Under the pieces are notes generated by a model. That model was not told the origin of the DNA. It was given only the letters and a program-made list of their open reading frames with translations, and ran no database searches. Shown piece after piece: positions 805 to 31,112 of a stretch of DNA of 64,000 nt. Source of the stretch: Gammaproteobacteria bacterium. GTDB taxonomy: Bacteria > Pseudomonadota > Gammaproteobacteria > CAJXQU01. The stretch is taken from the NCBI GenBank assembly GCA_965238175.1, contig CBDEGZ010000003.1:896001-960000 (forward strand), in the 5' to 3' direction. Every line of letters begins with the position of its first letter. Position 1 is the stretch's first letter. The translations under genes were made by a program, and so were the position numbers.

Positions 805-1239
805 ATGCAATTAAATACGATTAAGCCAAGTGCAGGCGCAAAACGATCTCGAAAAAGAGTTGGACGAGGGATCGGTTGTGGTCAAGGTAAAACTTGTGGT
901 CGAGGTCATAAAGGACAACATTCAAGATCTGGTGGTTATCATAAAGTTGGTTTTGAAGGTGGTCAAATGCCATTACAACGACGCCTTCCTAAATTTGGTT
1001 TTAGATCTAGAAAGTCTCTAACAAGAGCAGAGATCAGGTTAAACGAACTTGTTATTGCAAATGTGGATGTGGTTGATCTAGATGCATTAAAAAACGCCGA
1101 CATTATTTCTAATAAAATTAAAACAGTAAAAGTAATCCTATCTGGCGAAATTAATAAAGCAATTACACTGAAAGGAATTAAAGCAACAAAAGGTGCTAAA
1201 GAAGCTATCGAGGCTGCTGGCGGGAATTTGGAAAACTAG
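805..1239 (+). CDS. rplO: 50S ribosomal protein L15
   Basis: [21 protein letters not shown] and [15 protein letters not shown]; ATG at 805 preferred. Confidence 0.98.
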
Positions 1240-2585: not shown

Positions 2586-2604
2586 GGTTGTTTGAGGAAT
2601 AGAA

Positions 2605-2718
2605 ATGAAAGTAAGAGCATCAGTAAAAAAAATGTGCAGAAACTGTAAAGTAGTACGTCGCAAAGGTGTAGTTAGAGTAATTTGCAAAGATGGCAGACAT
2701 AAACAAAGGCAAGGTTAA
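2605..2718 (+). CDS. rpmJ: 50S ribosomal protein L36 (Zn-ribbon type)
   Basis: Not in ORF track; hand translation [44 protein letters not shown] upstream. Confidence 0.98.
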
Positions 2719-2797
2719 ACCCTTGATTAAATGCGCATTAAAGAATAAAATTTCGCGCTTTTTCAGTATTAAACGGCAAGGTTAGGAGATTATAAGC

Positions 2798-3154
2798 ATG
2801 GCTCGTGTTGCAGGGGTAAACATCCCGGATCAAAAACACACCGTAATAGCATTAACATATATATACGGTGTTGGGCGTAGTCGAGCTCAAGATATTTGCT
2901 TGAATACAGGAGTTGCTCCGAACCAAAAGGTTAAAGAGTTGACTGAAGAACAGCTTGAAAAGTTAAGAACTGCAGTTGCTAGTTTTCAGGTGGAAGGTGA
3001 TCTTCGTCGAGAAGTTTCAATGAACATTAAACGTCTTATGGATTTAGGCTGCTTCAGAGGTATTCGCCATCGAAGAGGGTTACCTTTACGTGGTCAAAGA
3101 ACGAAGACAAACGCAAGGACTAGAAAAGGTCCTAGAAAGCCAATCCGTAAATAA
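2798..3154 (+). CDS. rpsM: 30S ribosomal protein S13
   Basis: [10 protein letters not shown]...[14 protein letters not shown]. Confidence 0.99.
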
Positions 3155-3178
3155 TTAATAGAGCAGGTTTTTGTAAAT

Positions 3179-3568
3179 ATGGCTAAATCACCAGGACGAG
3201 TTAAAAAAAGAGCGAAAAGAACAGTAGTAGATGCTGCAGCTCATGTGCATTCTTCGTTTAATAATACGATTATCACGATTACAGATCGTCAGGGTAATGC
3301 TTTAGGTTGGTCTACTGCTGGAGGTAGTGGATTTCGCGGCTCCCGGAAAAGTACACCATTTGCTGCTCAAGTAGCTGCAGAAAACTTGGCTGATACTATG
3401 AACGAATACGGAATTAAAAATCTTGAAGTTTATATAAAAGGACCTGGGCCTGGCCGTGATTCGGCCGTTCGTGCACTAAACAATGCAGGATTTAAAGTTA
3501 TTAACATAACCGATGTTACACCGATACCACACAATGGGTGTCGGCCACCAAAGAAAAGAAGAGTATAG
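3179..3568 (+). CDS. rpsK: 30S ribosomal protein S11
   Basis: [11 protein letters not shown] and [18 protein letters not shown]. Confidence 0.99.
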
Positions 3569-3580
3569 AGTAGATACCCC

Positions 3581-4204
3581 ATGGCTAGATACATAGGACC
3601 AAAATGTAAGTTAAGTAGACGACACGGTGTCGACCTTTTTTTAAAAAGTCACGCTCGTCCGTTAGAATCTAAATGTCAGCTAGAAAAAGCACCAGGCCAA
3701 CATGGAGATAGCAGACAAAGAAGAATGTCTGATTATGCTGTGCAGCTAAATGAGAAACAAAAATTACGACAGATTTATGGCGTACTTGAGCGTCAGTTTA
3801 GGAATTACTACAAAAAAGCCTCAAAAATAAAAGGCTCTACAGGTGAAAACCTACTTAAACTATTGGAATGTAGATTAGACAACGTTGTGTACCGTATGGG
3901 TTTTGGCGCAACACGTGCTGAATCAAGGCAACTTGTCAGTCACAAGGCTATCTTGGTAAATGGTCAATCTGTAAATATTCCTTCTTATACAGTTAAGGCG
4001 GATGATGTTATTTCGGTTAGAGAAAAAAGTCGTAAACAGGTTCGCATACAAGATTCTTTAGTACTAGCAGAACAATTCGGTATCCCAGAATGGATGCAAG
4101 TGGATGCTAAGAAAATGGAAGGTTTATTTAAATCGGTTCCTGATCGTAGTGATTTACCTGCGGATATCAATGAATCACTTGTTGTCGAATTATATTCTAA
4201 ATAA
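3581..4204 (+). CDS. rpsD: 30S ribosomal protein S4
   Basis: [14 protein letters not shown]; [14 protein letters not shown]. Confidence 0.99.
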
Positions 4205-4227
4205 TACTGGTTAGGAGAGATTACCAT

Positions 4228-5226
4228 ATGGGCACATCCGCTACGGAATTTTTAAAACCACGTGTTGTTGACGTTGAATTTGTCGAAGACAAGGTTGCGA
4301 AGCTAGTTCTTGAGCCACTGGATAGAGGCTTTGGACATACGATGGGGAATGCACTTCGTCGAGTACTTTTATCTTCTATCACTGGTGCAGCTGTTGTAGA
4401 AGTAGAAATTGAAGGTGTTCTTCATGAATATACTACGATTGAAGGCGTACAAGAAGATGTGACAGATATTTTGCTCAATCTCAAAGGTCTCGCAATTGAG
4501 ATGCATGCAAAAGAAGAGTCAACGATAACAATAAACAAGAAAGGTCCAACTAATGTTGTTGCTGGAGATATTACAGTCGATCATGATGTTGAGATAGTAA
4601 ATAAAGAGCATCATATTGCTACTCTCACTGAAGGTGCTGAGCTCAACATGACGATGAAAGTCAAGTCTGGTCGAGGATATGTTGCAGCTACAACACAAGT
4701 AAATGATGAAGACGAAGATCAAGCAATTGGAAGTTTGAAATTAGATGCTTCTTTTAGTCCGATACGCAGAGTTGCTTATGAAGTACAGAGTGCACGTGTT
4801 GATCAAAGAACTGACCTTGATCGTCTCGTTCTGGAAATTGAAACAAATGGTGCGGTTGATCCAGAAGAAGCATTGAAAGGCGCTGTTAAAATACTAATTG
4901 ATCAATTAGCAGTTTTTGTAGATTTAAGTACTATGGAAGCAAGTGTTCCAGAGAAAGAGGAAGAAGTTGAAATTGATCCTATTCTATTACGATCAATTGA
5001 TGATTTAGAATTGACTGTCAGATCAGCCAATTGTCTTAAAGCAGAAAGTATTTGTTACATCGGCGATTTGATACAAAGAACAGAAGTAGAGTTACTGAAG
5101 ACGCCTAATCTTGGTAAGAAGTCATTGACTGAAATTAAGAGTGTACTCGCTGCACGAGGGCTTTCATTAGGTATGCGGCTTGAAAATTGGCCACCAAAAG
5201 ATTTGATCGGTACGCTTACAGCTTAA
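4228..5226 (+). CDS. rpoA: RNA polymerase alpha subunit
   Basis: [18 protein letters not shown]; alpha-[15 protein letters not shown]. Confidence 0.99.
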
Positions 5227-18491: not shown

Positions 18492-18597
18492 AGGATACAC
18501 ACACAACAACCGATAAAGACAGCCGCCTCAACACATTGTGCTGAGGAAGCCTAAAGAGACACGGCACAGACGTGCCACACACGACAGGAAAATGCAG

Positions 18598-21500
18598 ATG
18601 ACACGCCAAACACAGACAGGCCTTGGAACTCACCCACGCAGAGTTAACGCTTTTGTTGCCAGCTTAATTTTCGCCTTAATGTCATTAACCACATCGGTGA
18701 TGCAAGCGGCAGTGCCGGGCCTCACCCCGGGAGAGCTGAGTGTTGGTCAGTCGGGTGCGGCAGAATACAATGTGCCGATTGCAGTGCCACCGGGCACGGC
18801 TGGCATGGCACCGATCTTATCGTTGAACTACAGCAGCAACAGCGGCAATGGGCCGCTAGGGGTCGGGTGGTCATTAAGTGGTCTATCGGCGATTACCCGC
18901 TGTCCACAGACCCTGGCACAAGATGGACAAATACGCGCAGTGAAGTTTGACACTCAGGATAAGTTTTGTCTGGATGGCCAGCGTCTAGTCGTCTCAAACG
19001 GCGGTGCCTATGGTGCCAATGGTACACAATATCGCACTGAGATGGATAACTTTAGTTTGATTACTTCGCACGGCAGTGGCTCAGGCTCACCTGTCAGTGG
19101 ACCAAACTACTTCACCGTCAAAACCAAAGCCGGTCAAACGATGTTTTACGGCACGACAACGGACTCAAACATTGACAGCCTCAACGGCGGACACGTGCGC
19201 ACCTGGGCCTTAAACCAGCTCCACGACACGGTCGGTAACTACATCAATTTCACTTATGAAGAAGATACCGACAAGCAAGATTACCGGATAGCGCGGATAG
19301 ATTACACCGGCAACGTTAATGGCAGGGGCCCCTACAGCTCGGTACGGTTTGCGTACATGCCACGGCCAAGACTGGCCAAAGGTTACATTGCAGGCCACCC
19401 CTTTGCACAACGTAAGCTGATGACAAACATCAAGACCTATGCAGGTGAGACGCAGGTGAAAGACTATCGGCTGCATTATGAGATGACCGGTGTGGTGGGG
19501 CAACCGCGCATCGAAGAAATCAAAGAGTGTGATGGTGGTGGTCAGTGTTTTAATCCGTTGACGTTTGACTGGTCGCCGGAGTTGATGGGGTATAGTGATT
19601 CGCGGAGTATTTTCCTAGTGCCGCTTAAAGAAAGCGACGGTGTACAGTGGGTCGATCATAATGGCGATGGCAACACCGATTTTTGTTATATCAACAAATA
19701 CGGTACGCCTATCTGTCATGTCTCTAATGGCACAATGCTTAATCAAACCCCCATCAGCGCCGGTTTTACCGTTAATAAAGGCTATGATGAAGGCCGTGAA
19801 TGGATCGACGTTAATGGCGATGGCAAGGCGGATTTTTGTCGCGTCGTTGGAAACTCAAGTAATCCACAGATAGCCTGTAACACATCAACTGGTAATGGGT
19901 TAAATAGCGCGTTCTCAGGTAGCCTCTCACCGGAAGGCTGGGGGCAGGGGCAGGGTCGCCGATGGGTGGATTTTAATGGTGATGGACGAGCGGATTATTG
20001 TCGAGTGACAGGATCTAACCGTGCCGCCTGTACGCTCTCAACCGGTACTGGCTTTGGTCAGACTATTATCGGCACAGGTTTAGTTTATGGAACCGGTGCG
20101 AATGGAAAAAATATCCGTGACTGGGAAGACGTCAATGGCGATGGTCTGGTGGATTTTTGTCGGACGCTGACGGATAACAGTAAGGTTTGTAACCTTTCTA
20201 CCGGTACCGGGTTTGATCCCACTCCCTATCAAACGGCAGCCCATGCAGTAAGTGGTTACTCTGGCTCCACCGCCTGGGTGGATATCAATGGCGATGGCAA
20301 TAAAGATCTCTGTGGCCTCTTCAAAGAAGGAGAAATCCAAAGCAAGACCCCCCTCGTTCCAGGCCTTTTGGAGAATCAACAATATAAATTCACCATTAGT
20401 GAAGCTCGATTTTATGCTAAGTGTAATTTGTATACCGGTACGGGTTTCGCCAACACCATTGAAAAAGAAATGTTATATGTTCCTGAGAAATCGTGTTTCA
20501 GCTATGAAGGTATTTCATGTGACATATTGCAAAGGGAACCCGAAACAAACGTTAAACTTAAGTGGAAAGACGTCAACAACGATGGGCTTGTTGATGCGTG
20601 TAGATTTGGTGCATGCGCACTCTCTAATGGCAGTGGCTTTGGGCCACTGGTGACTGGGGTAAACACACATTTTGAGAATAGCAAGACAACCGATGAGATT
20701 TTTGCCGATGTCAACGGCGATGCCATCGCCGACGCTTGTTACATTCGTTTTCGTAGTCAAAAAGACGATAATATCACTTGCAGAATCGGCAACACCCGCC
20801 CCCAGATGCGCATTATCAAAGTCACCAACAGCCTTGGTAGCCCCACCGAGATTGAATACAAACCGATGACCGACAGCAGCGTCTACAGTAAATCTGCGGA
20901 TGTGGTTCCGAAAACAACAGGCTACCCTTACCTTGACGTCCAAGCCCCGATGTACGTAGTCTCCAAGGTTAAAAATGACAATGGCCTCGGCCTCGGCATC
21001 ACCAACGACGTCGACTACACCTATGCAGGCGCCAAAGTCCACCTAAAAGGCCGTGGTTTTGCTGGTTTTCGTTGGATGTTTGCCTACAACAGAGCCCAAG
21101 GCACCTATGCGGCGACCGAGTTCCATCAAGACTTCCCACTCGCCGGCATGGTCGCCTACACACGTAGCAACCTGATTGCAGACAATAGCCTGATTAGTCA
21201 AACCAACAACACCTATAACGTTGTGGCAAGAACCGACGGCAGCTATTTTCCCTATCTTCAAACCAGTAACCAAGTCACATACGAACTCGGCGGAGCCATG
21301 GTCAAACAAACCGTTACAGACTACGTCTACGATGATTATGGTAACCCGATCTCGATTAAAGTGGCCACCGCAGGCCTCGACCAAAATACCTTCCGCACAG
21401 AAACCACCAACACCTACGACGCGTCCAGTACCGCCATCAGCAAATGGTACCTAGGCCGCTTAACCACCACCGCCGTCACGCAAACCGCCAACGGCAAGAC

Positions 21501-24500
21501 CGCAACCCGTAAATCAGCGTTTGAATACGACATCAATGGTCACGGCATGCTGATGAAAGAAATCATCGAGCCGAATAACCCCGCACTTCGATTAGAAACC
21601 GCCTATCAATACGACGCCTACGGTAACAAAACCCGCGTCACCGCCTTGGGCGGCAGCGGATCTACCGCCATCACCGCCCGCAGCACACGAACAGAATATA
21701 GCGGCGGCGGTCACAACACCGGGCAATTCCCGATCAAAATCACCAATGCGATGGGCGAATCTGAAACCCATACCTACGATGCGCGCTTTGGCGTCATGAC
21801 CAAACTCACCGGCCCCAATGGTCTGGAGACCACCTGGCAATACGATAGCTTTGGACGCAAGATAAAAGAGACACGGGCAGATAGCACGACAACCACCTTT
21901 ACTCGTAACTGGTGTGCTAAATACTGTAAGACCTCCCTGACCACCCAAAGCACTGGCAGTGCGCCTGCTCTGGAAGCCTTTGACCGACTCGGCCGAATTC
22001 AATATGTCAATACCTATGGTCTTGGAAATGATCTGTCTGGCAGCAATGTCTACACAGATCTAAATATCATTAACCCCCGCATTATCAGTGTAGCAACCCA
22101 ATACAATATTCGCGGTGAAATCAAACGAACCTCACAACCCTTCTATCTTCAGAGCCCCATTCACTGGACCAACTTCACCTACGACGCCCTCGGCCGGCCG
22201 CTAACCGAAACCGACGCCAACGGCACCACCGGTTATGAATATAAGGGACTAACATCAACCCTCACCAACCGCCTCAACCAAAAAACCACCCGGCGAGTTA
22301 ATGCGCGTGACGAATTGATCCAAACCACCGACAACCTAGGCTTCAACACCTATTACCAATATGATGCACAGGGCAACCAAACCCAAGTCACTGACCACCT
22401 CGGCAACATCACCACCATTGACTACGACGCCCGTGGTCGCAAAATCGCCATGAACGACCCCGACATGGGCGACTGGGAATACAGCTACAACGCCCTCGGA
22501 GAGCTGATAAGCCAAACCGACGCCAAAGGCCAAATCACCCGCATGGAATACGATATTCTAGGGCGCATGATCACACGCACAGACGCGGAATGTAACAGCT
22601 TCTGGGTCTATGGCTCACACAGCAACACCGGCGCAAGTGATAAGGCCATCGGCAAACTCATCTACAGCCAAAAAGGCCAGCAAGAAAAAATCTTCACTCG
22701 CTACGACAGCCTAGGCCGTCCGAATGAAATTGAAACAAGACTACAGTTTGAAGCCACCAACAAAACCTACCTCACCCAAACAAATTACGACACGCTCGGA
22801 CGAGTACAAGACATCACCTATCCGGCCAGCAACGACTACCCAACAGGCCTCGTAGTCAGAAACCACTACGACGCCAACGGCCATATGCACAAAGTCACCG
22901 GCCCCAACAACATCACCTACTGGCAAGCCACCAAACAAAATGCGCGAGGCCAGATAACCGAGTTCCGTATGGGCAATGGCGCCACCGAAACCCAACGGTC
23001 TTATAATGCAATAAACGGCCTGGTAAGCAACATCAACACCCGTAACGATAATGGAACTGACAACATTCAGAAACTTGGCTTTACCTTTGACGTCGCCGGC
23101 AACCTCAAAACCCGCCGAGGCTACGACCAAGGCAATAACACCAACCTCGAAGAAAACTTCCATTATGACGGCATCAATCGCCTCATCGTGTCACAGCTTG
23201 GCGATGGGTCACATCGAAAGCAATACGACTACGACGCGCTCGGCAACCTCACCTTCAAAACCGGGGTTGGCACCTACGACTACACCAACGGCCGTCCACA
23301 TGCGGTGAGCAACACCTCGATTGGGAGTAAACAATACCAATACGACGACAATGGCAACATGATGAGCGGTGATGGTCGAACCATCACCTGGTCACCGTAC
23401 AACAAACCGATCAAAATTGAGAAAGACGGTGTACAAACCGCCACCCAATTTGACTACGGCGCGAACCGCAACCGCATTCGGCAGGTAAATGATCAAAAAA
23501 TCATTTATTACGTCAACGGCCTGTTTGAGCAGGAATACGATGGCACCACCACCACCGACGTGCACTACATCAAAGCCGGTGGCAGCACCATTGCGATTGT
23601 TAAATCCAAAGGCACCAACGACCCACTAGAAACCCGCTACCTGCACAAAGACCACTTAGGCGGCATTGAGTCGATTACAAATGAACAAGGTAACCTAGTC
23701 CAACAGTTTAGCTATGACCCGCATGGCAAACGCCGGGCGGTTAACTGGACCGATGATGACAATGTCAGCAACCCGGCTATTTATCAATTTGACACCCAAC
23801 GTGGCTTTACCGGGCATGAACACCTGGACGAGGTGGGGCTAATTCACATGAACGGCCGAGTCTATGACCCGACGCTTGGACGGTTTATCAGTGCAGATCC
23901 GTTTGTGCAGTTCCCGGACAATGGCCAGTCATTGAACCGCTATTCGTATGTGTTGAACAATCCACTCAGTTATTCTGACCCCAGTGGGTTCTTTTTTAAG
24001 AAGTTGTTTAGGAATAAGATTTTTAGGATTGTGGCGAGTATTGCAGTTAACTTTTTACCCGGGTTTCAAGCACTTGGGCCTTTATTGAATGCTGCACTGA
24101 AAGGGTTTGCGGCAAGTTTTATAGGCAGCGGCGGTGATTTAAGATCAGGGTTTATTGGTGCAGTGACGATGGGCGCATTCCAGAAACTGGGAGGTGCCGG
24201 TGCAATTGCAGGGAAAATTGGAGGTTTTACAGGTGATGTTGTCGAGGTCGTGGCTCATGGTGTTGTTGGAGGTGTCTCTGCCATCGCCCGTGGTGGTAGG
24301 TTTATCCAGGGGTTCTTGCCTGCCGGGTTGAGTAGTGCAACGAGCTTGTCTGGTTTCTTAAGGAACTTAGATGATGTGACGCAAGGTTTTGCGCAGGCTG
24401 TTATTGGTGGAACCGCTTCTGTGTTGGGTGGCGGTAAGTTTGCTAATGGCGCGGTGACGAGTGCGTTTGTTTATGCGGCGGGGAGGGTTGGGCAGGCGAG

Positions 24501-24999
24501 AGCGGGAGCCGGTGGGGGGGCTGGGGCTGGGGGGGATGCTGGTGGGTTTGCTCGGGGGAAGAGAGCTGGTCAGGGCGTGAAATCTGCTGGAGTGGAAGTT
24601 GATAATAATCTATTATTAAGGAAACTTGGTGAGGTAAATGGGAAAGGTGATGTTCTTATTGTTGATGCAGGTACAGAAATCTTTATTGAACCATATGGCA
24701 ATAGTTTAGGTGGAGAAGGTTTTTCATATAACATCAATTACCATTATTATGACGCAGTTGGTAATATAATCCCACAAATGGCTCCTCTCAATGCCTTTGG
24801 GAGAGGAATTCCTGCATTCACCGGACAGGCATTTGTTGGTCAAAATGGAGGTGGTCCTGATTTGCCATTTAGTGCTCCAAATGTGGGGGGGAATAACTAT
24901 AACGGGAGTGTAAGATGGTCAATCTCAATACCTAGACAAGCCTCGTCACATGATGCAAGCTTGGGAGTGAATTTGAGAGTTTACGAGGTAATAAGGTGA
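18598..24999 (+). CDS. Rhs/YD-repeat polymorphic toxin with Sec signal, SpvB-like N-terminus, FG-GAP repeats, TcdB-middle-like region, Rhs core and variable C-terminus
   Basis: GELSVGQSGAAEYNVPIAVPPG...LSLNYSS (SpvB-like); DVNGDG repeats; YD repeats; core RGFTGHE...HMNGRVYDP...NPLSYSDPSG (DPSG at 23977-23988). Confidence 0.92.
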   Translation: MTRQTQTGLGTHPRRVNAFVASLIFALMSLTTSVMQAAVPGLTPGELSVGQSGAAEYNVPIAVPPGTAGMAPILSLNYSSNSGNGPLGVGWSLSGLSAITRCPQTLAQDGQIRAVKFDTQDKFCLDGQRLVVSNGGAYGANGTQYRTEMDNFSLITSHGSGSGSPVSGPNYFTVKTKAGQTMFYGTTTDSNIDSLNGGHVRTWALNQLHDTVGNYINFTYEEDTDKQDYRIARIDYTGNVNGRGPYSSVRFAYMPRPRLAKGYIAGHPFAQRKLMTNIKTYAGETQVKDYRLHYEMTGVVGQPRIEEIKECDGGGQCFNPLTFDWSPELMGYSDSRSIFLVPLKESDGVQWVDHNGDGNTDFCYINKYGTPICHVSNGTMLNQTPISAGFTVNKGYDEGREWIDVNGDGKADFCRVVGNSSNPQIACNTSTGNGLNSAFSGSLSPEGWGQGQGRRWVDFNGDGRADYCRVTGSNRAACTLSTGTGFGQTIIGTGLVYGTGANGKNIRDWEDVNGDGLVDFCRTLTDNSKVCNLSTGTGFDPTPYQTAAHAVSGYSGSTAWVDINGDGNKDLCGLFKEGEIQSKTPLVPGLLENQQYKFTISEARFYAKCNLYTGTGFANTIEKEMLYVPEKSCFSYEGISCDILQREPETNVKLKWKDVNNDGLVDACRFGACALSNGSGFGPLVTGVNTHFENSKTTDEIFADVNGDAIADACYIRFRSQKDDNITCRIGNTRPQMRIIKVTNSLGSPTEIEYKPMTDSSVYSKSADVVPKTTGYPYLDVQAPMYVVSKVKNDNGLGLGITNDVDYTYAGAKVHLKGRGFAGFRWMFAYNRAQGTYAATEFHQDFPLAGMVAYTRSNLIADNSLISQTNNTYNVVARTDGSYFPYLQTSNQVTYELGGAMVKQTVTDYVYDDYGNPISIKVATAGLDQNTFRTETTNTYDASSTAISKWYLGRLTTTAVTQTANGKTATRKSAFEYDINGHGMLMKEIIEPNNPALRLETAYQYDAYGNKTRVTALGGSGSTAITARSTRTEYSGGGHNTGQFPIKITNAMGESETHTYDARFGVMTKLTGPNGLETTWQYDSFGRKIKETRADSTTTTFTRNWCAKYCKTSLTTQSTGSAPALEAFDRLGRIQYVNTYGLGNDLSGSNVYTDLNIINPRIISVATQYNIRGEIKRTSQPFYLQSPIHWTNFTYDALGRPLTETDANGTTGYEYKGLTSTLTNRLNQKTTRRVNARDELIQTTDNLGFNTYYQYDAQGNQTQVTDHLGNITTIDYDARGRKIAMNDPDMGDWEYSYNALGELISQTDAKGQITRMEYDILGRMITRTDAECNSFWVYGSHSNTGASDKAIGKLIYSQKGQQEKIFTRYDSLGRPNEIETRLQFEATNKTYLTQTNYDTLGRVQDITYPASNDYPTGLVVRNHYDANGHMHKVTGPNNITYWQATKQNARGQITEFRMGNGATETQRSYNAINGLVSNINTRNDNGTDNIQKLGFTFDVAGNLKTRRGYDQGNNTNLEENFHYDGINRLIVSQLGDGSHRKQYDYDALGNLTFKTGVGTYDYTNGRPHAVSNTSIGSKQYQYDDNGNMMSGDGRTITWSPYNKPIKIEKDGVQTATQFDYGANRNRIRQVNDQKIIYYVNGLFEQEYDGTTTTDVHYIKAGGSTIAIVKSKGTNDPLETRYLHKDHLGGIESITNEQGNLVQQFSYDPHGKRRAVNWTDDDNVSNPAIYQFDTQRGFTGHEHLDEVGLIHMNGRVYDPTLGRFISADPFVQFPDNGQSLNRYSYVLNNPLSYSDPSGFFFKKLFRNKIFRIVASIAVNFLPGFQALGPLLNAALKGFAASFIGSGGDLRSGFIGAVTMGAFQKLGGAGAIAGKIGGFTGDVVEVVAHGVVGGVSAIARGGRFIQGFLPAGLSSATSLSGFLRNLDDVTQGFAQAVIGGTASVLGGGKFANGAVTSAFVYAAGRVGQARAGAGGGAGAGGDAGGFARGKRAGQGVKSAGVEVDNNLLLRKLGEVNGKGDVLIVDAGTEIFIEPYGNSLGGEGFSYNINYHYYDAVGNIIPQMAPLNAFGRGIPAFTGQAFVGQNGGGPDLPFSAPNVGGNNYNGSVRWSISIPRQASSHDASLGVNLRVYEVIR

Positions 25000-25439
25000 A
25001 AAATCTAAATATTGGCACTTTATCATTTTGGGTTGTTATTTTATTAATCACAGGTTGTAGTAAACAGCAGGAAAATAAGGAGCCCAGAAATCTGACATAT
25101 GGAAAGTATTCGTTGCAAGAATGTGTTGTGCAAGTAAATCTAAATTGGGAGGATGATATTGGGAGTGCTGAGAAGTATGAAGCAATTAAGAATATAGGGC
25201 ATCAAATAGTTTTAGCAATGAATTCTAGAGAATTTCCATTATTTGGTTCAAATACAACTCGCTCTATGAATTACTATCTTTTCTACTACGCTGATAAGTG
25301 CGAAAAAAGAGAAAGGTATACTGAGAGTATAATTAATGATTTTATACTTAATAAAGTAACTAATTTTCCTCCGTATAAAATTCTAACTAAACCTATTAAG
25401 TTTGAAAATGGTGCAGAACCAAGAGGTTGGTGGAAATAA
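24996..25439 (+). CDS. Putative immunity lipoprotein for Rhs C-terminal toxin 1
   Basis: Overlaps the Rhs stop (GTGA); AT-rich; lipobox LITG-C. Confidence 0.75.
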   Translation: MKNLNIGTLSFWVVILLITGCSKQQENKEPRNLTYGKYSLQECVVQVNLNWEDDIGSAEKYEAIKNIGHQIVLAMNSREFPLFGSNTTRSMNYYLFYYADKCEKRERYTESIINDFILNKVTNFPPYKILTKPIKFENGAEPRGWWK

Positions 25440-25562
25440 AATCAAGGGGTCAGCCAGCTTGATTATCTCGATAAGCCTTACTTTTCCTATCTCCACCGTG
25501 CGAGGTTAATTTTGTCGGTCTCGATAATTTTGCAGCCATTTGTGTATGAAAACCCGCCTTAC
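25440..25562 (-). mobile_element. Inverted fragment of the RAYT element right end
   Basis: Reverse complement of about 29845-29968 with about 3 mismatches. Confidence 0.9.
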
Positions 25563-25582
25563 TGAATTAAATAGGGTCAGAC

Positions 25583-25705
25583 TAAGGTAGCCCAGGTATT
25601 CCGGACACTTCAAAAGAGAGACAATACTTTTAGAGGTGAGCCATGTCAAAACGTCAAAGTTATACCCGAGAATTCAAGTTAGAGGCCGTGCGACTGCTTG
25701 AGCAG
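25583..25705 (+). pseudogene. IS3-family left end with truncated orfA
   Basis: IRL-like GGTAGCCCAGGTATTCCGGACAC; ATG 25643 reads MSKRQSYTREFKLEAVRLLEQ and is then cut off. Confidence 0.75.
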
Positions 25706-25721
25706 AAAATAAGTGGGGTCA

Positions 25722-25803
25722 GCAACTGTCTTGAGCCAGCTGCTCATTCCAGGGTTTATCATCTCTCACCATCGCGTTAATCATGACCAATAATTTGCGC
25801 ATG
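25722..25803 (-). pseudogene. IS110-family transposase C-terminal fragment
   Basis: Minus strand MRKLLVMINAMVRDDKPWNEQ, a typical IS110 C-terminal motif. Confidence 0.65.
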
Positions 25804-25835
25804 AGAAATCAAGGGGTCAGCCAGCTTGATTATCT

Positions 25836-28685
25836 CAATACAATATTCGCGGTGAAATCAAACGAACCTCACAACCCTTCTATCTTCAGAGCCCCATTCA
25901 CTGGACCAACTTCACCTACGACGCCCTCGGCCGGCCGCTAACCGAAACCGACGCCAACGGCACCACCGGTTATGAATATAAGGGACTAACATCAACCCTC
26001 ACCAACCGCCTCAACCAAAAAACCACCCGGCGAGTTAATGCGCGTGACGAATTGATCCAAACCACCGACAACCTAGGCTTCAACACCTATTACCAATATG
26101 ATGCACAGGGCAACCAAACCCAAGTCACTGACCACCTCGGCAACATCACCACCATTGACTACGACGCCCGTGGTCGCAAAATCGCCATGAACGACCCCGA
26201 CATGGGCGACTGGGAATACAGCTACAACGCCCTCGGAGAGCTGATAAGCCAAACCGACGCCAAAGGCCAAATCACCCGCATGGAATACGATATTCTAGGG
26301 CGCATGATCACACGCACAGACGCGGAATGTAACAGCTTCTGGGTCTATGGCTCACACAGCAACACCGGCGCAAGTGATAAGGCCATCGGCAAACTCATCT
26401 ACAGCCAAAAAGGCCAGCAAGAAAAAATCTTCACTCGCTACGACAGCCTAGGCCGTCCGAATGAAATTGAAACAAGACTACAGTTTGAAGCCACCAACAA
26501 AACCTACCTCACCCAAACAAATTACGACACGCTCGGACGAGTACAAGACATCACCTATCCGGCCAGCAACGACTACCCAACAGGCCTCGTAGTCAGAAAC
26601 CACTACGACGCCAACGGCCATATGCACAAAGTCACCGGCCCCAACAACATCACCTACTGGCAAGCCACCAAACAAAATGCGCGAGGCCAGATAACCGAGT
26701 TCCGTATGGGCAATGGCGCCACCGAAACCCAACGGTCTTATAATGCAATAAACGGCCTGGTAAGCAACATCAACACCCGTAACGATAATGGAACTGACAA
26801 CATTCAGAAACTTGGCTTTACCTTTGACGTCGCCGGCAACCTCAAAACCCGCCGAGGCTACGACCAAGGCAATAACACCAACCTCGAAGAAAACTTCCAT
26901 TATGACGGCATCAATCGCCTCATCGTGTCACAGCTTGGCGATGGGTCACATCGAAAGCAATACGACTACGACGCGCTCGGCAACCTCACCTTCAAAACCG
27001 GGGTTGGCACCTACGACTACACCAACGGCCGTCCACATGCGGTGAGCAACACCTCGATTGGGAGTAAACAATACCAATACGACGACAATGGCAACATGAT
27101 GAGCGGTGATGGTCGAACCATCACCTGGTCACCGTACAACAAACCGATCAAAATTGAGAAAGACGGTGTACAAACCGCCACCCAATTTGACTACGGCGCG
27201 AACCGCAACCGTATTCGGCAGGTAAATGATCAAAAAATCATTTATTACATCAACGGCCTGTATGAACAAGAGTTTGATGGCACCACCACCACCGACGTGC
27301 ACTACATCAAAGCCGGTGGCAGCACCATTGCGATTGTTAAATCCAAAAAATCTAAAGGCACCAACGACCCACTAGAAACCCGCTACCTGCACAAAGACCA
27401 CTTAGGCGGCATTGAGTCGATTACAAATGAACAAGGTAACCTAGTCCAACAGTTTAGCTATGACCCGCATGGCAAACGCCGGGCGGTTAACTGGACCGAT
27501 GATGACAATGTCAGCAACCCGGCTATTTATCAATTTGACACCCAACGTGGCTTTACCGGGCATGAACACCTGGACGAGGTGGGGCTAATTCACATGAACG
27601 GCCGAGTCTATGACCCGACGCTTGGACGGTTTATCAGTGCAGATCCGTTTATACAAGCACCGGAAAATGGCCAGTCGTTGAATCGCTATTCGTATGTGTT
27701 GAACAATCCACTCAGTTATTCTGACCCCAGTGGGTTCTTTTTTAAGAAATTGTTTAAGAATAAGATTTTTAGGATTGTGGCTCAGGTAGTGCTTGCCTAC
27801 TTCACTGCTGGTCAGTCATTACTGTTTGAACAAGCTGTTGCCTTAGGGTTTGTGAGTGGGTTTGTATTCAGTGGCGGTGATTTTAAGGCCGGGTTTATTG
27901 GAGGGTTAACGGCCGGGGCGTTTCATGGAGTGGGGACATATTTTAAGGGGTTGGCTGGAAAAATAAGCGCTGGAACGCTCAAGGCCTTGAAGGTTGTCGC
28001 CCACGGTGTCGTGGGAGGTGTGTCTCAGGTTGCAAGCGGCGGTAAGTTTGCGGCAGGGTTCTTGTCGGCGGGAGTTACTCAGGCCGCTTCGAATATCGAA
28101 GGTTTGTTTACTGAGGGGGAAGGTATTACACTCGGCAATACGGTGAAAGCGGCGGTCATTGGTGGGACAGCGTCGGTGATTGGTGGGGGTAAGTTTGCAA
28201 ATGGGGCCATTACGGGGGCGTTTTCTAGGTTGTTTAATGATGATGCGGCAGGTCATAGTGGGGAAATAAAGAAAAGTGTTTTCTCAACAGAAGCATCATG
28301 TACTGTTCCTAGCCAATGCGAGCGTGAAAAATTCTACGGTAGGGAGCGAGTAAATAGATACGAAACATTACCGATGTTGACGTCACCATCAAGACCTGGA
28401 AAACCTACTATTATTGATGGCATTGTCTTGGCGATAGATGGAGTCACTCAATCATTTAGTTCTCATTATATAGATACAGTAAAGGTGACTTATACAGAAC
28501 GTCTATATGATGTAACAGAAACACAGTGGGCAGACGGTGGTGAACTAATCGGTCAAAGGACTTATCAGTCATGGTTTCCTGGAGAACGTGTTGGAGATGG
28601 TTTTACACGAAACGTGATTAATAGTGAATGGCAAGGTCTTGTTCATTCCAGTGACAGAAGGAATAAATATAATGTTGATAATTAA
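25836..28685 (+). pseudogene. Orphan Rhs module (5'-truncated core plus a different C-terminal toxin)
   Basis: About 1.9 kb near-identical to 22099-24035 (offset 3737); no N-terminal domains or clear start; sequence diverges shortly after DPSG. Confidence 0.88.
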
Positions 28686-28689
28686 GCAT

Positions 28690-29148
28690 ATGAAAAAATT
28701 AAATATTTATATTACTATTTTTAGTTTTATAGTCATTGTAATCGCTGGTTGTGATGGCTCTTCAATAGAAGATAATGAAAGTTTCAAATTTATAGTATTA
28801 AAAGAATGTGAAGAACATGTCATAAGCTATCTATCATCTATATCTGAGGATATGGGGTTATCAGTTGAATATTTTCCTTTTGATTTCCAAGTTCCCTCAC
28901 ACTCAGAGGTTGTAGGGTATATTGAATTATCCAGTAAATATGAAGGAAAAGAAGAACTAGAAACATATGCAAATGCAGTATGGTTAGATTGTTATCCTAC
29001 GGCTACTGAGCGAATTTCTAGGGGTAATCCTGATTATCCCTCTGAGGTTTTTAGGTCTGTTGAATTAGGTGAAAAATTTGGTGATAAGTCTCGTTATTTT
29101 CAGGTGGGTAAAGATGAGGTTATTATTCATTTTAGACAGAATAAATGA
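28690..29148 (+). CDS. Putative immunity lipoprotein for orphan Rhs C-terminal toxin 2
   Basis: Directly after the orphan stop; MKKLNIYITIFSFIVIVIAG-C lipobox; AT-rich. Confidence 0.75.
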   Translation: MKKLNIYITIFSFIVIVIAGCDGSSIEDNESFKFIVLKECEEHVISYLSSISEDMGLSVEYFPFDFQVPSHSEVVGYIELSSKYEGKEELETYANAVWLDCYPTATERISRGNPDYPSEVFRSVELGEKFGDKSRYFQVGKDEVIIHFRQNK

Positions 29149-29190
29149 TCGGAGATCGGTCAGGGTCAGGCTATCTTTTATCAATTAAAT

Positions 29191-29970
29191 AAAACCAAGG
29201 GGTCAGCCATCTTGATATTTCACTTTGAAGCAAGTAATCTACCCAAATGGCGCGCCTACCAAGAATAGTTATCCCAGACCAAGCACTGCATATCATGCAC
29301 AGAGGCAATAATCGTCAAGTCATCTTTGAAACAGAAGAAGATTTTATAAGGCTTAAGGATGATATTAACCACACCTTATTAAAAGCAGACTGTCAGCTTC
29401 ATGCCTATGTGATAATGAATAACCACCTACACTTACTACTTACACCCAAAGATAAAGAGCAGCTCAAAGTCTTTATGCAATCGTTGAGTAATCGCTATGT
29501 GCGTTACTTCAATGCTGTACGAAAACGAACCGGCACTCTTTGGGAAGGACGCTATAAATCTTGCTTAATCGACAGTGACAACTACCTGTTCACGCTCTAT
29601 AAATACATCGAAATGAACCCGGTGAAAGCCAATATTGTTGATAACTTAGAAGCCTATCGATGGTCGAGTTATCACCACAATGCGTTAGGAAAGAAAGACA
29701 AGCTCATCGCTACCCATCCACTCTATAAGAAATTAGGAAAGACATTTGATCAACAAACAGCTGCCTACAAGGCTTTGTTTGAAGGGTTAGACCTATCGCA
29801 AGATGTTGACATTACCCAAGCGACTCAAAAGGGTGAGGTTTTTGGTAAGGCGGGTTTTCATACACAAATGGCTGCAAAATTATCGAGACCGACAAAATTA
29901 ACCTCGCACGGTGGAGATAGGAAAAGTGAGGCTTATCGAGATAATCATGCTGGCTGACCCCTTGGTTTTC
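29191..29970 (+). mobile_element. RAYT element bounded by short inverted repeats (AAAACCAAGGGGTCAGCCA)
   Basis: Left AAAACCAAGGGGTCAGCCATCTTGAT (from 29191); right ATCATGCTGGCTGACCCCTTGGTTTT (to 29969). Confidence 0.8.
29247..29957 (+). CDS. REP-associated tyrosine transposase (RAYT, Y1/HUH family)
   Basis: MARLPR, HIMHRGNNRQ, HUH motif MNNHLHLLL, WEGRYKS, catalytic Y in YIEMNPVKA, WSSY. Confidence 0.92.
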   Translation: MARLPRIVIPDQALHIMHRGNNRQVIFETEEDFIRLKDDINHTLLKADCQLHAYVIMNNHLHLLLTPKDKEQLKVFMQSLSNRYVRYFNAVRKRTGTLWEGRYKSCLIDSDNYLFTLYKYIEMNPVKANIVDNLEAYRWSSYHHNALGKKDKLIATHPLYKKLGKTFDQQTAAYKALFEGLDLSQDVDITQATQKGEVFGKAGFHTQMAAKLSRPTKLTSHGGDRKSEAYRDNHAG

Positions 29971-30285
29971 GAGGAATTAATTAATAACTATGGCTGGTTT
30001 TCAGCTAATAGACATGACTTTAAAGGTGTTGAAAACATCTTGACCTTTGTAGCAATTTTACTACCGAAGTGGAGTCCAAAAGATATATCACTCATTGAAT
30101 CACAGGGAGATTACATTAACGATTTTGGTCATGATGTATATGTGTTTGATATTGATAACTTTGAAACACAAGCGCAAATAGAGGAAACCTTAATTGGTTT
30201 CCCTAAGGTAAGTCAGACTCCTATAGTTGGGGTGTACGAGGATGGAATTCTTAAAAGCTTTGTATGTGGAATGGAAGAAAAATAA
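29971..30285 (+). pseudogene. 5'-truncated AT-rich gene fragment, possibly an orphan immunity gene
   Basis: Open frame with no own start, beginning at the RAYT right end; composition resembles the immunity genes. Confidence 0.4.
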
Positions 30286-30305
30286 AATGGCAAAAGAAAT
30301 AAGTG

Positions 30306-30644
30306 GGCGGCTTCAACTCCAAAGCGCGCCACTAGCCGTGATTAAAAAGACATGACTTTCCGTCTTGCTAGAATGAGATTGTCGAGATCTTATTCTATTG
30401 GAGAAAAAGCCATGCCTTATCATCATTTTAGCGCAAAAGAACGTCACACCTTAATGTATTTATTGTACTGGGGATTAAGCTATCGAGACATTGGACGACG
30501 CCTCAATCGTCACCACAGTACCATTGCCCGAGAAGTCACACGCAATGGTCGCCTACGAAACTTATCTTACTGTAACGAATTTGCTGATAGACAAGCCTGT
30601 CTTCGTAAGACACAGGCTCGCCATTATCGAAAACGTGGGCCGAG
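30306..30644 (+). pseudogene. IS30-family left end with truncated transposase
   Basis: IR-like GGCGGCTTCAACTCCAAAGCGC; MPYHHFSAKERH...LNRHHSTIAREVTRN (HTH_38-like); cut off at 30645. Confidence 0.8.
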
Positions 30645-30721
30645 CAGGGTCAGGCCTTACATTTCACATAAAATAGAAACATAGAAGCTGTAGAAAATGT
30701 CAATTGTAAGGCCTGACCCTG
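30645..30721. repeat. 77-bp mini-element with 24-bp inverted repeats (GGGTCAG core)
   Basis: CAGGGTCAGGCCTTACATTTCACA vs reverse complement CAGGGTCAGGCCTTACAATTGACA (2 mismatches). Confidence 0.85.
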
Positions 30722-31015
30722 ATGAATCCTAATAGATCATAACCTCCTAATTCACCAAATCCTGCTTGCGCCCCAGCAGCATAAAACCCAGCAAGAAAAT
30801 CTTCACCGGAAAGTTCAGCAGAAACACCCCCGATCGCCCCATGAGCGAGTACTTTTGTAAATCCTTCGGTGTTATGGACCCCATTAAATGCACTAGTAGT
30901 GGCGTATGATATCGCTGCAGATTTAGCAATATCACCAAGACTACCCCCATTCACTGCCGTATTAAAAGCCGAAGAAGCTGCCGCGCATTGAGCGGCATAT
31001 GGACCGCCCCAAAAT
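30722..31015 (-). pseudogene. Inverted fragment of a third Rhs post-core Gly/Ala-rich linker
   Basis: KVLAHGAIGGVSAELSGEDFLAGFYAAG resembles KVVAHGVVGGVSQVASGGKFAAGFLSAG of the orphan Rhs. Confidence 0.75.
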
Positions 31016-31112
31016 ATATTTCCAAATTCATGTTGCTGAGGCGTGGTGATGTAGCTAGAATTCCCGTTCTTTTGTTAAACCCACATTTCGGGCTTGGAAA
31101 CCACATAGTTAC

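What the first reader, a model, noticed from the sequence alone, without database searches (positions are those of the whole stretch)
25440..31015. Candidate new system: a RAYT (HUH) element whose GGGGTCAG ends mark the junctions of an Rhs toxin-immunity cassette array
Seen: the (G)GGGTCAG motif occurs about 10 times in 5.3 kb (25446, 25574, 25715, 25813, 27721-, 29163, 29199, 29954-, 30647, 30713-). A rough hand estimate gives well under one by chance. The motif forms the inverted ends of an intact RAYT gene. It also sits at module borders: just after both immunity stop codons, at the start of the orphan Rhs, before a truncated immunity-like fragment, and at an inverted third Rhs fragment. 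Known: RAYTs are single-strand HUH nucleases tied to short repeats, and orphan Rhs modules replace toxin tips by recombination. Inference: the RAYT and its ends capture or shuffle toxin-immunity cassettes, acting as an integron-like diversity generator for polymorphic toxins.
Basis: partly seen in the sequence, partly recalled or inferred. Interest (0 to 1): 0.85.

Follow-up and report, generated by a model that had tools for sequence, protein, structure and literature searches.

The report
RAYT transposase units flank Rhs toxin cassettes
A small single-strand-DNA transposase gene with GGGGTCAG-headed inverted ends sits right behind Rhs toxin-immunity modules, here and in a dozen unrelated bacteria, which suggests but does not prove that it helps these toxin modules move or recombine.

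Summary
About 0.26 would be expected from the genome-wide density.

What the 10 sites are:
- Four are ends or solo copies of a 776-bp RAYT element (RAYT-A).
- Two are the arms of a REPIN that belongs to a second RAYT.
- Two are REP heads of a third, broken RAYT. One adjoins an IS3-like fragment and the other an IS110 fragment.
- One is the Ser-Asp-Pro codons of the Rhs core-tip junction.
- One is unassigned.

GGGGTCAG is the conserved head of this RAYT family's ends. It lies within 200 bp upstream of the gene in 26 of 29 close homologue loci and 30 of 42 distant ones. A reversed control motif gave 1 of 29 and 3 of 42.

The link to Rhs is strong. All 9 genome copies of AAGGGGTCAGCC, plus one variant, lie in three Rhs loci that make up 1.26% of the genome. 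In a sister species, 10 of 12 REP copies punctuate one orphan Rhs-tip and immunity array that ends in its RAYT.

RAYT units sit just downstream of Rhs immunity genes in at least 12 other lineages. Four genomes have such modules with no full-length rhs nearby.

Catalysed cassette shuffling is not shown.

The parts
18538..24999 (+). Main Rhs gene (Rhs1, 2153 aa) with SpvB-like, FG-GAP and RHS-repeat regions and toxin tip 1. The S-D-P codons at 23975-23982 read CTGACCCC.
24996..25439 (+). Presumed immunity gene 1 (147 aa). It has a lipoprotein-like N-terminus, and its start overlaps the Rhs1 stop (GTGA).
   Evidence: No Pfam family was found.
25438..25562 (-). A 125-bp inverted copy of the RAYT-A 3' end with its right-end REP. 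It is 97.6% identical to 29845-29969 and starts at the imm1 stop codon.
   Evidence: It folds as a 7-bp-stem hairpin, z -3.2.
25563..25582 (+). REP-C-like head (ATTAAATAGGGTCAGAC; the motif at 25574). It is cut off by the IS3-like fragment.
25583..25704 (+). IS3-like fragment: the left end and the OrfA N-terminus (MSKRQSYTREFK...). It is 97.7% identical to C3:2070709-2070838.
25705..25805 (-). 3' fragment of an IS110-family transposase gene. Its stop codon lies inside the motif at 25715. The same end is seen at C3:3183411-3183470.
25806..25835 (+). Solo 30-bp REP-A of the right-end type, inverted. It is joined directly to the 5'-truncated orphan Rhs core.
   Evidence: Hairpin z -4.9.
25836..28685 (+). 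Orphan Rhs module. The core remnant 25836-27781 is 98.6% identical to Rhs1 (window 22099-24035). The DPSG junction is at 27721, followed by toxin tip 2.
28690..29148 (+). Presumed immunity gene 2, with a lipoprotein-like N-terminus.
   Evidence: No Pfam family was found.
29163..29169 (+). Unassigned GGGTCAG, 15 nt after the imm2 stop.
29192..29967 (+). RAYT-A element (776 bp): left end 29192-29221, Y1 HUH transposase gene 29247-29957 (236 aa), right end 29938-29967. The gene's stop codon lies inside CTGACCCC. It is 99.87% identical to C3:631058-631833.
29962..30285 (+). Open frame that runs out of the RAYT right end, about 107 aa after the end. Its function is unverified; there is only a thioredoxin-like lead.
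30306..30637 (+). IS30-family fragment (HTH_38 N-terminus). It is 99.1% identical to four copies elsewhere in the genome.
30642..30721 (.). REPIN-B: two inverted GGGTCAGGCCTTACA repeats that form a hairpin (z -7.0). Copies of the whole 80-bp unit lie at C3:2528103-2528182 and C3:3039641-3039720; further REP-B copies flank the second RAYT at C3:971170-972012.
30722..31090 (-). Inverted fragment of a polymorphic-toxin pre-toxin region, Gly/Ala-rich, with a weak DUF637 match (E 7.8e-4, below Pfam's cut-off). It ends at the REPIN-B arm.

Best explanation
Window 18.5-31.1 kb is a decaying Rhs toxin-immunity array. It has been colonised by IS-like RAYT units, each a Y1 HUH transposase gene bracketed by inverted ends whose conserved head is GGGGTCAG.

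These units sit at, or travel with, the 3' flank of Rhs-tip and immunity modules. When modules are stacked, whole units, truncated units or solo 30-bp REPs end up as the separators. Each separator directly abuts the 5'-truncated core of the next orphan.

Shown:
- the anatomy;
- recent copying of RAYT-A into three Rhs loci with unrelated flanks, plus a deletion derivative that keeps both ends;
- confinement of its ends to Rhs loci;
- recurrence of the Rhs - immunity - REP-RAYT-REP order in many lineages.

Inferred:
- the RAYT moves its own unit;
- module gain, loss and reshuffling then run mainly through host homologous recombination, using the Rhs core as the 5' homology and the RAYT/REP copies as the 3' homology ('bookends');
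- the RAYT does not itself cut out cassettes.
For: 1. Family signature. GGGGTCAG lies within 200 bp upstream of the RAYT start in 26 of 29 close loci (at least 55% identity) and 30 of 42 distant loci. The reversed 6-mer control gave 1 of 29 and 3 of 42.

2. Mobility.
- The two full copies are 99.87% identical over 776 bp and have unrelated flanks.
- A third copy keeps both ends but lacks the gene's 3' half.
- A 125-bp fragment and solo REPs also exist.

3. Confinement. All 9 copies of AAGGGGTCAGCC, plus one variant, lie in three of the four Rhs neighbourhoods.

4. Rhs loci are not a general IS sink. Other repeat families fill 1,228 of 42,004 bp (2.9%) of the Rhs neighbourhoods, against 6.2% repeated DNA elsewhere. 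All partners of those families lie outside Rhs loci. RAYT-A is the only repeat family besides the Rhs core repeats whose copies all lie in the Rhs neighbourhoods.

5. Joints.
- The solo REP meets the orphan core at 25835/25836.
- At the third locus the RAYT left end meets an Rhs fragment that is 99.87% identical to Rhs1 nt 1177-4315.
- REP-B lies 11 bp from that fragment's 3' break.

6. Sister species G010. REPINs abut the core remnants of successive orphans, and the array is bounded by a RAYT 3' fragment and an intact RAYT. 10 of the 12 genome copies of GGGTCAGGTCTAG lie in this 9.4-kb array.

7. Recurrence.
- Rhs lies within the flank of 6 of 79 RAYT loci.
- Both Rhs loci of G005 have a RAYT homologue just downstream.
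- 1 of 13 metagenome loci shows it.
- In the 400-genome class sample, by my count 5 of the 49 listed RAYT rows that lie in Rhs-positive genomes are 1.1-2.6 kb downstream of a core end. They come from five families. I expect about 0.1 by chance.

8. Position. In all 16 cases I catalogued, the RAYT lies on the 3' side of the Rhs end. The REP starts 20 nt or less after the presumed immunity stop in 7 of 12 measured cases.
Against: - No direct evidence shows any rearrangement in progress. Contigs of public runs only reproduce the assembled joints.
- 73 of 79 RAYT homologue loci show no Rhs in the DNA held, and only 33 of the 79 have at least 5 kb on both sides. Neighbours in the close clade are a mix of housekeeping genes, toxin-antitoxin pairs and other IS.
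- Rhs orphan arrays exist without a RAYT. L115 has 7 core ends and none.
- The IS110 control is underpowered. 1 of 22 listed rows in Rhs-positive genomes lies within 6 kb of a core end, against 5 of 49 for RAYT. Only 150 of 428 RAYT rows and 150 of 333 IS110 rows were listed.
- The three RAYT-A loci all carry the same Rhs1-type core family, so they may not be independent events.
- I drew the Rhs neighbourhoods after seeing the data.
- The 'immunity' labels rest on position only for most ORFs.
Confidence: 0.5

Rival explanations
1. The RAYT itself cuts and rejoins single-stranded DNA at the REP or REPIN sites. It thereby excises, captures and re-inserts whole tip-immunity cassettes, like an integron for polymorphic toxins.
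For: - The RAYT keeps its HUH and Tyr motifs.
- In G010 and at 30642-30721 the separators are strong ssDNA hairpins, z -6.95 and -7.0.
- Both solo REP-A copies are cut to the same unit size of about 29-31 nt, with different DNA on each side.
- The segment 25806-29967 is bounded by inverted REP-A copies with the orphan module as cargo. In L001 a 258-bp Rhs fragment sits between a solo REP and the RAYT.
- RAYT-linked orphan modules occur without any full-length rhs. G010 and G003 have 0 RHS_repeat matches in the whole genome. G123 has only the truncated 665-aa frame. In G272 the main gene lies on another contig.
Against: - No circle, empty site or alternative module order was seen.
- The ends of the intact RAYT-A do not fold (z 0.14 and 0.42).
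- The orphan core joins the inner side of the solo REP, not the element's terminus.
- No module was found twice in different places, and the tip 2 toxin has no homologue in the 400 class genomes searched.
- As far as I recall, RAYT enzymes have not been shown to move cargo.
- 8,000 bases of G010 are withheld, and the completeness of G003 is not given.
Confidence: 0.2
2. Passive accumulation. Rhs arrays are dispensable DNA where insertions are tolerated. RAYT units and REPs pile up there like other debris, have no role, and mark junctions only because deletions end at them.
For: - The 5.6-kb region also holds IS3-like, IS110 and IS30 fragments.
- RAYT-A is inserted into another RAYT pseudogene at the third locus.
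- Most RAYT homologues sit in variable regions beside toxin-antitoxin genes and IS, not beside Rhs.
Against: - Other repeat families are not enriched in Rhs neighbourhoods (2.9% against 6.2%), and their other copies lie elsewhere. RAYT-A is confined to those neighbourhoods.
- Single-copy RAYT units sit at the same place, 20 nt or less after the immunity stop, in unrelated genomes whose REPs number only 2-7.
- In all 16 catalogued cases the RAYT is on the 3' side.
Confidence: 0.2
3. The REPs act at the RNA level. A hairpin right after the immunity gene would terminate transcription, stabilise the immunity message or tune its translation. It would be kept by selection for that reason, with the RAYT only maintaining it.
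For: - The REP starts 20 nt or less after the presumed immunity stop in 7 of 12 measured cases.
- REP effects on mRNA stability, and on translation when the REP lies close to a stop codon, are mentioned in passages of bioRxiv 10.1101/2024.07.17.603846.
Against: - This does not explain the joints inside Rhs coding sequence.
- It does not explain the presence of the whole transposase gene at each site.
- The ends of the intact RAYT-A do not fold.
- No expression data were obtainable.
Confidence: 0.05

Closest known systems
REPIN-RAYT systems (REP-associated tyrosine transposases). The general description is recalled; passages of PMC5581495 were read.
   Same: A Y1 HUH transposase gene flanked by inverted short repeats, with hairpin doublets (REPIN-B and the G010 REPIN). 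The profile fits the paper's 'Group 1', which has the highest duplicate rate among RAYT groups (6.2%) and flanking 16-mers at about 12 copies.
   Different: The repeats number only 2-12 per genome. They are concentrated in Rhs arrays rather than dispersed through extragenic space. RAYT-A has two intact copies. The ends of the intact copy are not palindromes. Group membership was not tested here.
IS200/IS605 insertion sequences (recalled).
   Same: A small Y1 transposase, near-identical multiple copies, a deletion derivative that keeps both ends, and no visible target duplication.
   Different: RAYT-A has imperfect terminal inverted repeats of about 27 bp. The family, as I recall it, has different subterminal hairpins at its two ends.
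Rhs orphan arrays formed by C-terminal displacement (PMC2935791, abstract and passages).
   Same: A main rhs gene, then a tip and immunity gene, followed by an orphan that keeps a core remnant 98.6% identical to the main core.
   Different: The word search of that paper found neither 'transposase' nor 'insertion sequence'. Here the 5' edge of the orphan core is a RAYT repeat, and some RAYT-linked orphan modules have no main gene in the genome.
Integron gene cassettes (recalled).
   Same: Arrays of promoterless-looking modules are separated by imperfect palindromes that could fold from single strands, with one recombinase gene at an end of the array (G010).
   Different: The enzyme is a HUH nuclease, not a tyrosine recombinase. 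No attI-like site, cassette circle or reordering is shown. This is a resemblance in layout only.
Other mobile or site-specific elements beside toxin-immunity loci: H-rpt/ISAs1 in E. coli Rhs elements (recalled), and IS sites and Xer-dependent recombination next to poly-immunity loci in Xenorhabdus and Photorhabdus (passage of bioRxiv 10.64898/2026.07.13.738213).
   Same: A mobile or recombination element is recurrently placed at the variable 3' side of toxin loci.
   Different: The enzyme class and repeat are different. The RAYT link did not appear in any of my searches.
IS110-family elements that insert into REP sequences (ISPpu9; abstract in the listing).
   Same: In G010 an intact IS110 gene follows a solo REP where the second REPIN arm is missing. 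In the window and at the third locus, IS110 3' ends are joined at ...GGGGTCAG.
   Different: This explains two of the ten motif sites. It is a side effect of the REPs being there, not part of the RAYT-Rhs link.

Membership tests
RAYT / REPIN system | Y1 HUH transposase with an HUH motif and a catalytic Tyr | tested here: met
   Pfam Y1_Tnp scores E 1.6e-13, 51.3 bits, against a cut-off of 23. NHxHLL and Y[KR]YIxxNP are invariant in 13 aligned homologues. No solved structure matched by sequence.
RAYT / REPIN system | Gene flanked by at least two copies of the repeat in inverted orientation | tested here: met
   29192-29221 (+) and 29938-29967 (-). The same holds in L001. The motif is conserved upstream in 26 of 29 and 30 of 42 homologue loci.
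RAYT / REPIN system | The repeat is a palindrome that folds as a hairpin | tested here: inconclusive
   The intact left and right ends give z 0.14 and 0.42. The solo and fragment copies give z -4.9 and -3.2. REPIN-B gives z -7.0 and the G010 REPIN z -6.95.
RAYT / REPIN system | Repeats dispersed in high copy number in extragenic DNA, with the RAYT in single copy | tested here: not met
   There are 10 REP-A copies, all in Rhs loci, and two intact RAYT-A genes plus one deleted copy. REP counts are 2, 7 and 2 in G122, G272 and G005, and 12 in G010.
IS200/IS605 insertion sequence | Multiple near-identical copies with different flanks | tested here: met
   99.87% identity over 776 bp between the two full copies, with unrelated flanks.
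IS200/IS605 insertion sequence | No terminal inverted repeats; distinct subterminal hairpins at each end (recalled definition) | tested here: not met
   The two ends are imperfect inverted repeats of about 27 bp and do not fold by themselves.
IS200/IS605 insertion sequence | Insertion 3' of a fixed 4-5 nt target | tested here: inconclusive
   I saw no shared motif in the outer flanks of ten ends. There are too few independent sites to decide.
Rhs orphan array | Main rhs gene with RHS repeats, a PxxxxDPxG junction, a variable tip and a downstream small ORF | tested here: met
   RHS_repeat scores E 7.3e-31. The junction is at 23977 and 27723. ORFs 24996-25439 and 28690-29148 follow. Immunity function was not tested.
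Rhs orphan array | Orphan with a 5'-truncated core highly similar to the main core | tested here: met
   25836-27781 is 98.6% identical to window 22099-24035.
Integron-like cassette system | Cassettes excised and inserted at the repeats by the linked enzyme | not testable with these tools
   Only contigs were available, and they show the assembled forms only.

The most novel reading that the evidence does not exclude
RAYT units with GGGGTCAG-headed REPs or REPINs are the long-missing vehicle for Rhs toxin tips. In this reading a cassette made of a 5'-truncated core, a toxin tip, an immunity gene and a REP/RAYT moves as single-stranded DNA by HUH cleavage and joining at the repeats. It then docks behind resident rhs genes, or elsewhere. 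That would explain orphan modules in genomes that have no rhs gene, and it would give this RAYT clade a cellular function.
Probability: 0.2. Interest if true: 0.9.

Novelty: new variant of a known kind. Interest (0 to 1): 0.68.

Why it matters
Two open questions meet here: what RAYT transposases are for, and how Rhs toxin tips and their immunity genes travel and get stacked into orphan arrays.

A RAYT unit placed within a few bases of the immunity stop codon recurs in unrelated bacteria. In two species of this genus its repeats are almost confined to toxin arrays. This gives a concrete, testable pairing.

Even if the RAYT only provides portable homology, it would be a marker for finding toxin-tip cassettes, and a handle for predicting where Rhs arrays break and recombine.

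I found no paper making this link. The searches were:
- RAYT + Rhs;
- Rhs + orphan + IS200 + immunity;
- 'REP-associated tyrosine transposase' + 'polymorphic toxin';
- 'polymorphic toxin' + IS200 + transposase;
- Rhs / 'C-terminal displacement' / 'repetitive extragenic palindromic'

. The library holds open-access papers and preprints only.

Tried and rejected
- **Public sequencing runs.** Two runs of one sample hold the stretch, and no RNA holder is listed. Only contigs were laid. The joints 19714/29193 (opposite strands) and 29600>29939 merely reproduce the third-locus copy. The joint 24500>29191 comes from a diverged contig that I take to be the paralogous L001 locus. None of this bears on active rearrangement.
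- **Co-mobility of a cassette with its REP.** The tip 2 toxin domain matched no genome other than G000 among the 401 searched, so the test could not be made.
- **The idea that CTGACCC(C) at the Rhs DPxG junction is a RAYT pseudo-site.** It was found only in the G000 lineage and in G272, among the 15 junctions (about 13 independent) that my pattern caught. I take it as coincidence. The pattern missed several junctions.
- **Relatives in the same genus.** None of the 5 genomes searched holds AAGGGGTCAGCC. No empty site or orthologous array was available for RAYT-A.
- **Solved structures by sequence.** No match at E 0.01 or better.
- **IS110 control for 'any transposase sits near Rhs'.** It is underpowered: 1 of 22 rows against 5 of 49. 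Only the best 150 rows of each search were listed.
- **ORF 29911-30285 as immunity gene.** There was no Pfam hit. The atlas gave thioredoxin-like clusters at 0.92, which is only a lead.
- **NCBIfam scan.** It failed on a wrong frame in one of my references and I did not repeat it.
- **First self-comparison of the genome.** It was truncated by a hit cap and is superseded.
Full report
**1. The observation**

An eleventh copy at 23975(-) was missed.

- Shuffles of the window give 4.0 +/- 1.9 copies of the 7-mer against 12 seen. They give 0.9 +/- 0.9 copies of the 8-mer against 7 seen. No shuffle of 100 reached either count.
- The genome has 155 copies of the 7-mer and 33 of the 8-mer. By my arithmetic, about 0.26 copies of the 7-mer are expected in the 5.6-kb region; ten are seen.

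**2. Anatomy of 18.5-31.1 kb**

In order along the window:

1. The main Rhs gene (18538-24999), with SpvB-like, FG-GAP and RHS-repeat regions.
2. A small lipoprotein-like ORF, imm1 (24996-25439).
3. Starting at the imm1 stop codon, a 125-bp inverted copy of the RAYT 3' end (25438-25562).
4. A REP-C-like head, cut by an IS3-like fragment (to 25704).
5. A 3' fragment of an IS110 transposase gene on the minus strand (25705-25805).
6. A solo 30-bp REP (25806-25835).
7. With no spacer, an orphan Rhs. Its core (25836-27781) is 98.6% identical to the main core from its nt 3562 onward. Tip 2 follows.
8. imm2 (28690-29148).
9. The 776-bp RAYT-A element (29192-29967).
10. An open frame running out of the RAYT right end (to 30285).
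11. An IS30 fragment.
12. An 80-bp hairpin REPIN of another family (30642-30721).
13. An inverted Gly/Ala-rich pre-toxin fragment that gives a weak DUF637 match (to about 31090).

A housekeeping-type oxidoreductase gene starts at 31113.

**3. What the ten sites are**

- Four are RAYT-A ends (25446, 25813, 29199 and 29954).
- Two are REPIN-B arms (30647 and 30713). Their own RAYT, 281 aa, lies at C3:971170-972012 between inverted REP-B copies.
- Two are REP-C-like heads (25574 and 25715). REP-C flanks a third RAYT, a pseudogene at C3:3182284-3182600, which is itself interrupted by the RAYT-A right end.
- One (27721-) is the codons TCT GAC CCC for Ser-Asp-Pro at the core-tip junction. The copy at 23975- is the same.
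- 29163 is unassigned.

So the motif count lumps three REP families with plain coding sequence. Eight of the ten sites are nevertheless REP heads of one transposase family.

**4. The motif is a family signature**

Among 79 loci from other species that encode relatives of RAYT-A (41-72% identity), 71 had a full N-terminus and at least 100 bp of upstream DNA.

- GGGGTCAG lies within 200 bp upstream of the start in 26 of 29 close loci. In 21 of them it sits at -50 to -45, as in the window.
- It does so in 30 of 42 distant loci.
- The reversed 6-mer control gave 1 of 29 and 3 of 42.

The HUH and Tyr motifs are invariant across 13 aligned proteins. These include the two other subfamilies, which are only 27-30% identical to RAYT-A.

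**5. RAYT-A behaves like a small insertion sequence that lives only in Rhs loci**

- A second full copy at C3:631058-631833 is 99.87% identical and has unrelated flanks. It lies behind a 2788-aa Rhs gene and a small ORF. Two solo REPs and a 258-bp fragment of a divergent Rhs N-terminus precede it.
- A third copy at C3:3181881-3182315 keeps both ends but lacks the gene's 3' half. Its left terminus is joined to an Rhs fragment that is 99.87% identical to Rhs1 nt 1177-4315. The other end of that fragment lies 11 bp from a REP-B.
- All 9 genome copies of AAGGGGTCAGCC, and one variant, lie in these three loci.
- The genome has four Rhs neighbourhoods, so three of the four are occupied.

As a control, a chunked self-comparison shows that other repeat families fill 1,228 of 42,004 bp (2.9%) of the Rhs neighbourhoods, against 6.2% repeated DNA elsewhere. 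All their partners lie outside those neighbourhoods. RAYT-A is the only repeat family besides the Rhs core repeats whose copies all lie in the Rhs neighbourhoods.

Caveats:
- I drew the neighbourhoods after seeing the data.
- All three loci share one Rhs core family that is 97.6-99.9% identical, so the three may not be independent events.

**6. The same layout in a sister species**

G010 is a one-contig genome of the same genus. It has a 9.4-kb array of orphan Rhs tips and small ORFs.

- 62-bp REPINs (GATTGGGGTCAGGTCTAGC...) stand before successive orphans. Each directly abuts a 5'-truncated core remnant.
- The array starts with a RAYT 3' fragment and ends with an intact 281-aa RAYT between inverted REPs.
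- One REPIN has lost an arm where an intact IS110 gene sits.
- 10 of the 12 genome copies of GGGTCAGGTCTAG lie in this array.
- The whole genome gives 0 RHS_repeat matches, with 8,000 bases withheld. These orphans therefore have no detectable main gene.

**7. Recurrence elsewhere**

- *The 79 RAYT loci.* Six hold Rhs homologues in their flanks. They are two syntenic Microbulbifer species, a Dyella, a Rhodanobacter, a Pseudomonadales MAG and a Neptunicella. Pfam mapping gives the order Rhs - small ORF - RAYT. In Rhodanobacter the RAYT lies between orphan modules, with its right end against a core remnant.
- *G005.* In the MAG's genome both Rhs loci have a RAYT homologue just downstream, at 72% and 49% identity.
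- *Metagenome scan.* A scan with the G010 RAYT gave 13 mostly short loci. One of them carries Rhs - ORF - REP - RAYT - REP.
- *Class sample of 400 genomes.* The Rhs core-end query matched 76 genomes, with about 153 matches. RAYT-A matched 186 genomes with 428 matches, of which 150 were listed. By my count 49 listed rows lie in Rhs-positive genomes other than G000 and G010. Five of these, from five families, lie 1.1-2.6 kb downstream of a core end on the same contig. I expect about 0.1 by chance.
- *The five cases mapped.* I fetched and mapped them. Four show the order Rhs - small ORF - REP - RAYT - REP. The fifth is looser and has no REP.
- *Side and spacing.* In all 16 cases I catalogued the RAYT lies on the 3' side of the Rhs end. 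The REP starts 20 nt or less after the presumed immunity stop in 7 of 12 measured cases, 43-78 nt after it in 3, and more than 300 nt after it in 2.
- *REP copy number.* The REPs in these genomes are few: 2, 7 and 2 copies in G122, G272 and G005.
- *Orphans without a main gene.* G123 has only the truncated 665-aa Rhs frame beside its RAYT. G003 has no RHS_repeat match at all. In G272 the main gene is on another contig.

**8. Results against a special role**

- 73 of the 79 RAYT loci show no Rhs in the DNA held. Only 33 have at least 5 kb on both sides.
- Neighbours in the close clade are mixed.
- An Rhs array with seven core ends has no RAYT (L115).
- The IS110 control gave 1 of 22 listed rows within 6 kb of a core end, on the upstream side. 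It also picked up the G010 copy inside a REPIN. This is too few rows to separate RAYT from 'any transposase' statistically.
- The ends of the intact RAYT-A do not fold significantly.
- The orphan core joins the inner side of the solo REP, not the element's terminus.
- Public contigs show only the assembled forms.

**9. Reading**

The best-supported account is that these are IS-like RAYT units specialised on, or carried with, the 3' flank of Rhs tip-immunity modules. Their ends and solo REPs become the separators when modules stack. The repeated core at the 5' side and the repeated RAYT/REP at the 3' side then give two homologies for exchange.

Whether the HUH enzyme itself moves cassettes remains open. 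Points in its favour are the orphan-only genomes, the uniform size of the solo REPs and the inverted-REP-bounded segment 25806-29967. I give it about one chance in five.

**10. Literature**

I read passages of PMC5581495. They describe a 'Group 1' of RAYTs with the highest duplicate rate among RAYT groups and flanking 16-mers at about 12 copies. This fits RAYT-A, but I did not test group membership.

The other papers I opened do not link RAYT or REP elements with Rhs loci:
- PMC2935791 (abstract and passages);
- bioRxiv 10.1101/2024.07.17.603846 (passages);
- PMC6329079 (passages);
- PMC9846239 (passages);
- bioRxiv 10.64898/2026.07.13.738213 (passages).

The last of these cites IS sites and Xer-dependent recombination next to poly-immunity loci in other genera.

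Five searches found no paper making the link. A search for the motif itself returned only unrelated papers in its 10 listed rows. I read no supplements.

The tallies include genomes that the tool marks as unpublished (G050, G151, G305 and G317). No case described here rests on them.

Noticed in passing
L092 12939-14125 (G010), window 25705-25805, L002 11411-11470: IS110-family elements sit exactly at REP heads. In G010 an intact IS110 gene replaces one arm of a REPIN. In G000 two IS110 3' fragments end in ...GTTGCTGACCCC followed by REP-C-like sequence. This fits the known habit of this IS family of inserting into REPs.
   Followed up: partly
L002 10316-10625 (C3:3182284-3182614): A third RAYT gene (MARLARFYV...) with its own REP head (GGGGTCAGACTCGAC) is broken by the right end of the deleted RAYT-A copy. 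One RAYT unit is nested in another, beside a DDE transposase fragment.
   Followed up: partly
L001 2-8419 (C3:622000-630419): A single open frame of more than 2800 codons (3338 aa open) appears to fuse two Rhs cores. The first is 97.6% identical to the window's core over the 1,946 bp shared with the window's orphan. It continues into a second DUF6531/RHS region before the tip.
   Followed up: no
window 23975-23982 and 27721-27728; L111 5473: The Rhs core-tip junction codons (S/T-D-P) spell CTGACCC(C), the complement of the REP head. This is so in G000 and in G272 but not in most other junctions checked. It is probably a coincidence of codon choice.
   Followed up: yes
window 29938-29967: The RAYT stop codon (TGA) lies inside the right-end motif. 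An ATG inside the same end opens the downstream frame 29911-30285, so the element could supply a start codon to the gene behind it.
   Followed up: no
L095 (C3:966000-975000): The second RAYT (281 aa, with a C-terminal extension shared with the G010 RAYT) lies just beyond the window. It is flanked by REP-B copies and by small ORFs with no Pfam family. I did not test whether these are toxin or immunity genes.
   Followed up: no
G000 contigs C1 and C2: Two small contigs (10,967 bp at 55.8% G+C and 8,481 bp at 43.9% G+C) differ in composition from the 40.4% chromosome. They may be plasmids or foreign DNA.
   Followed up: no
C3:2790809-2791251: A diverged copy (80% identical) of the RAYT-A 3' half with a stop inside lies outside the Rhs loci. 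It looks like an older, decayed insertion. A GGGTCAG lies nearby at 2790126 and a REP-B copy at 2786089.
   Followed up: no
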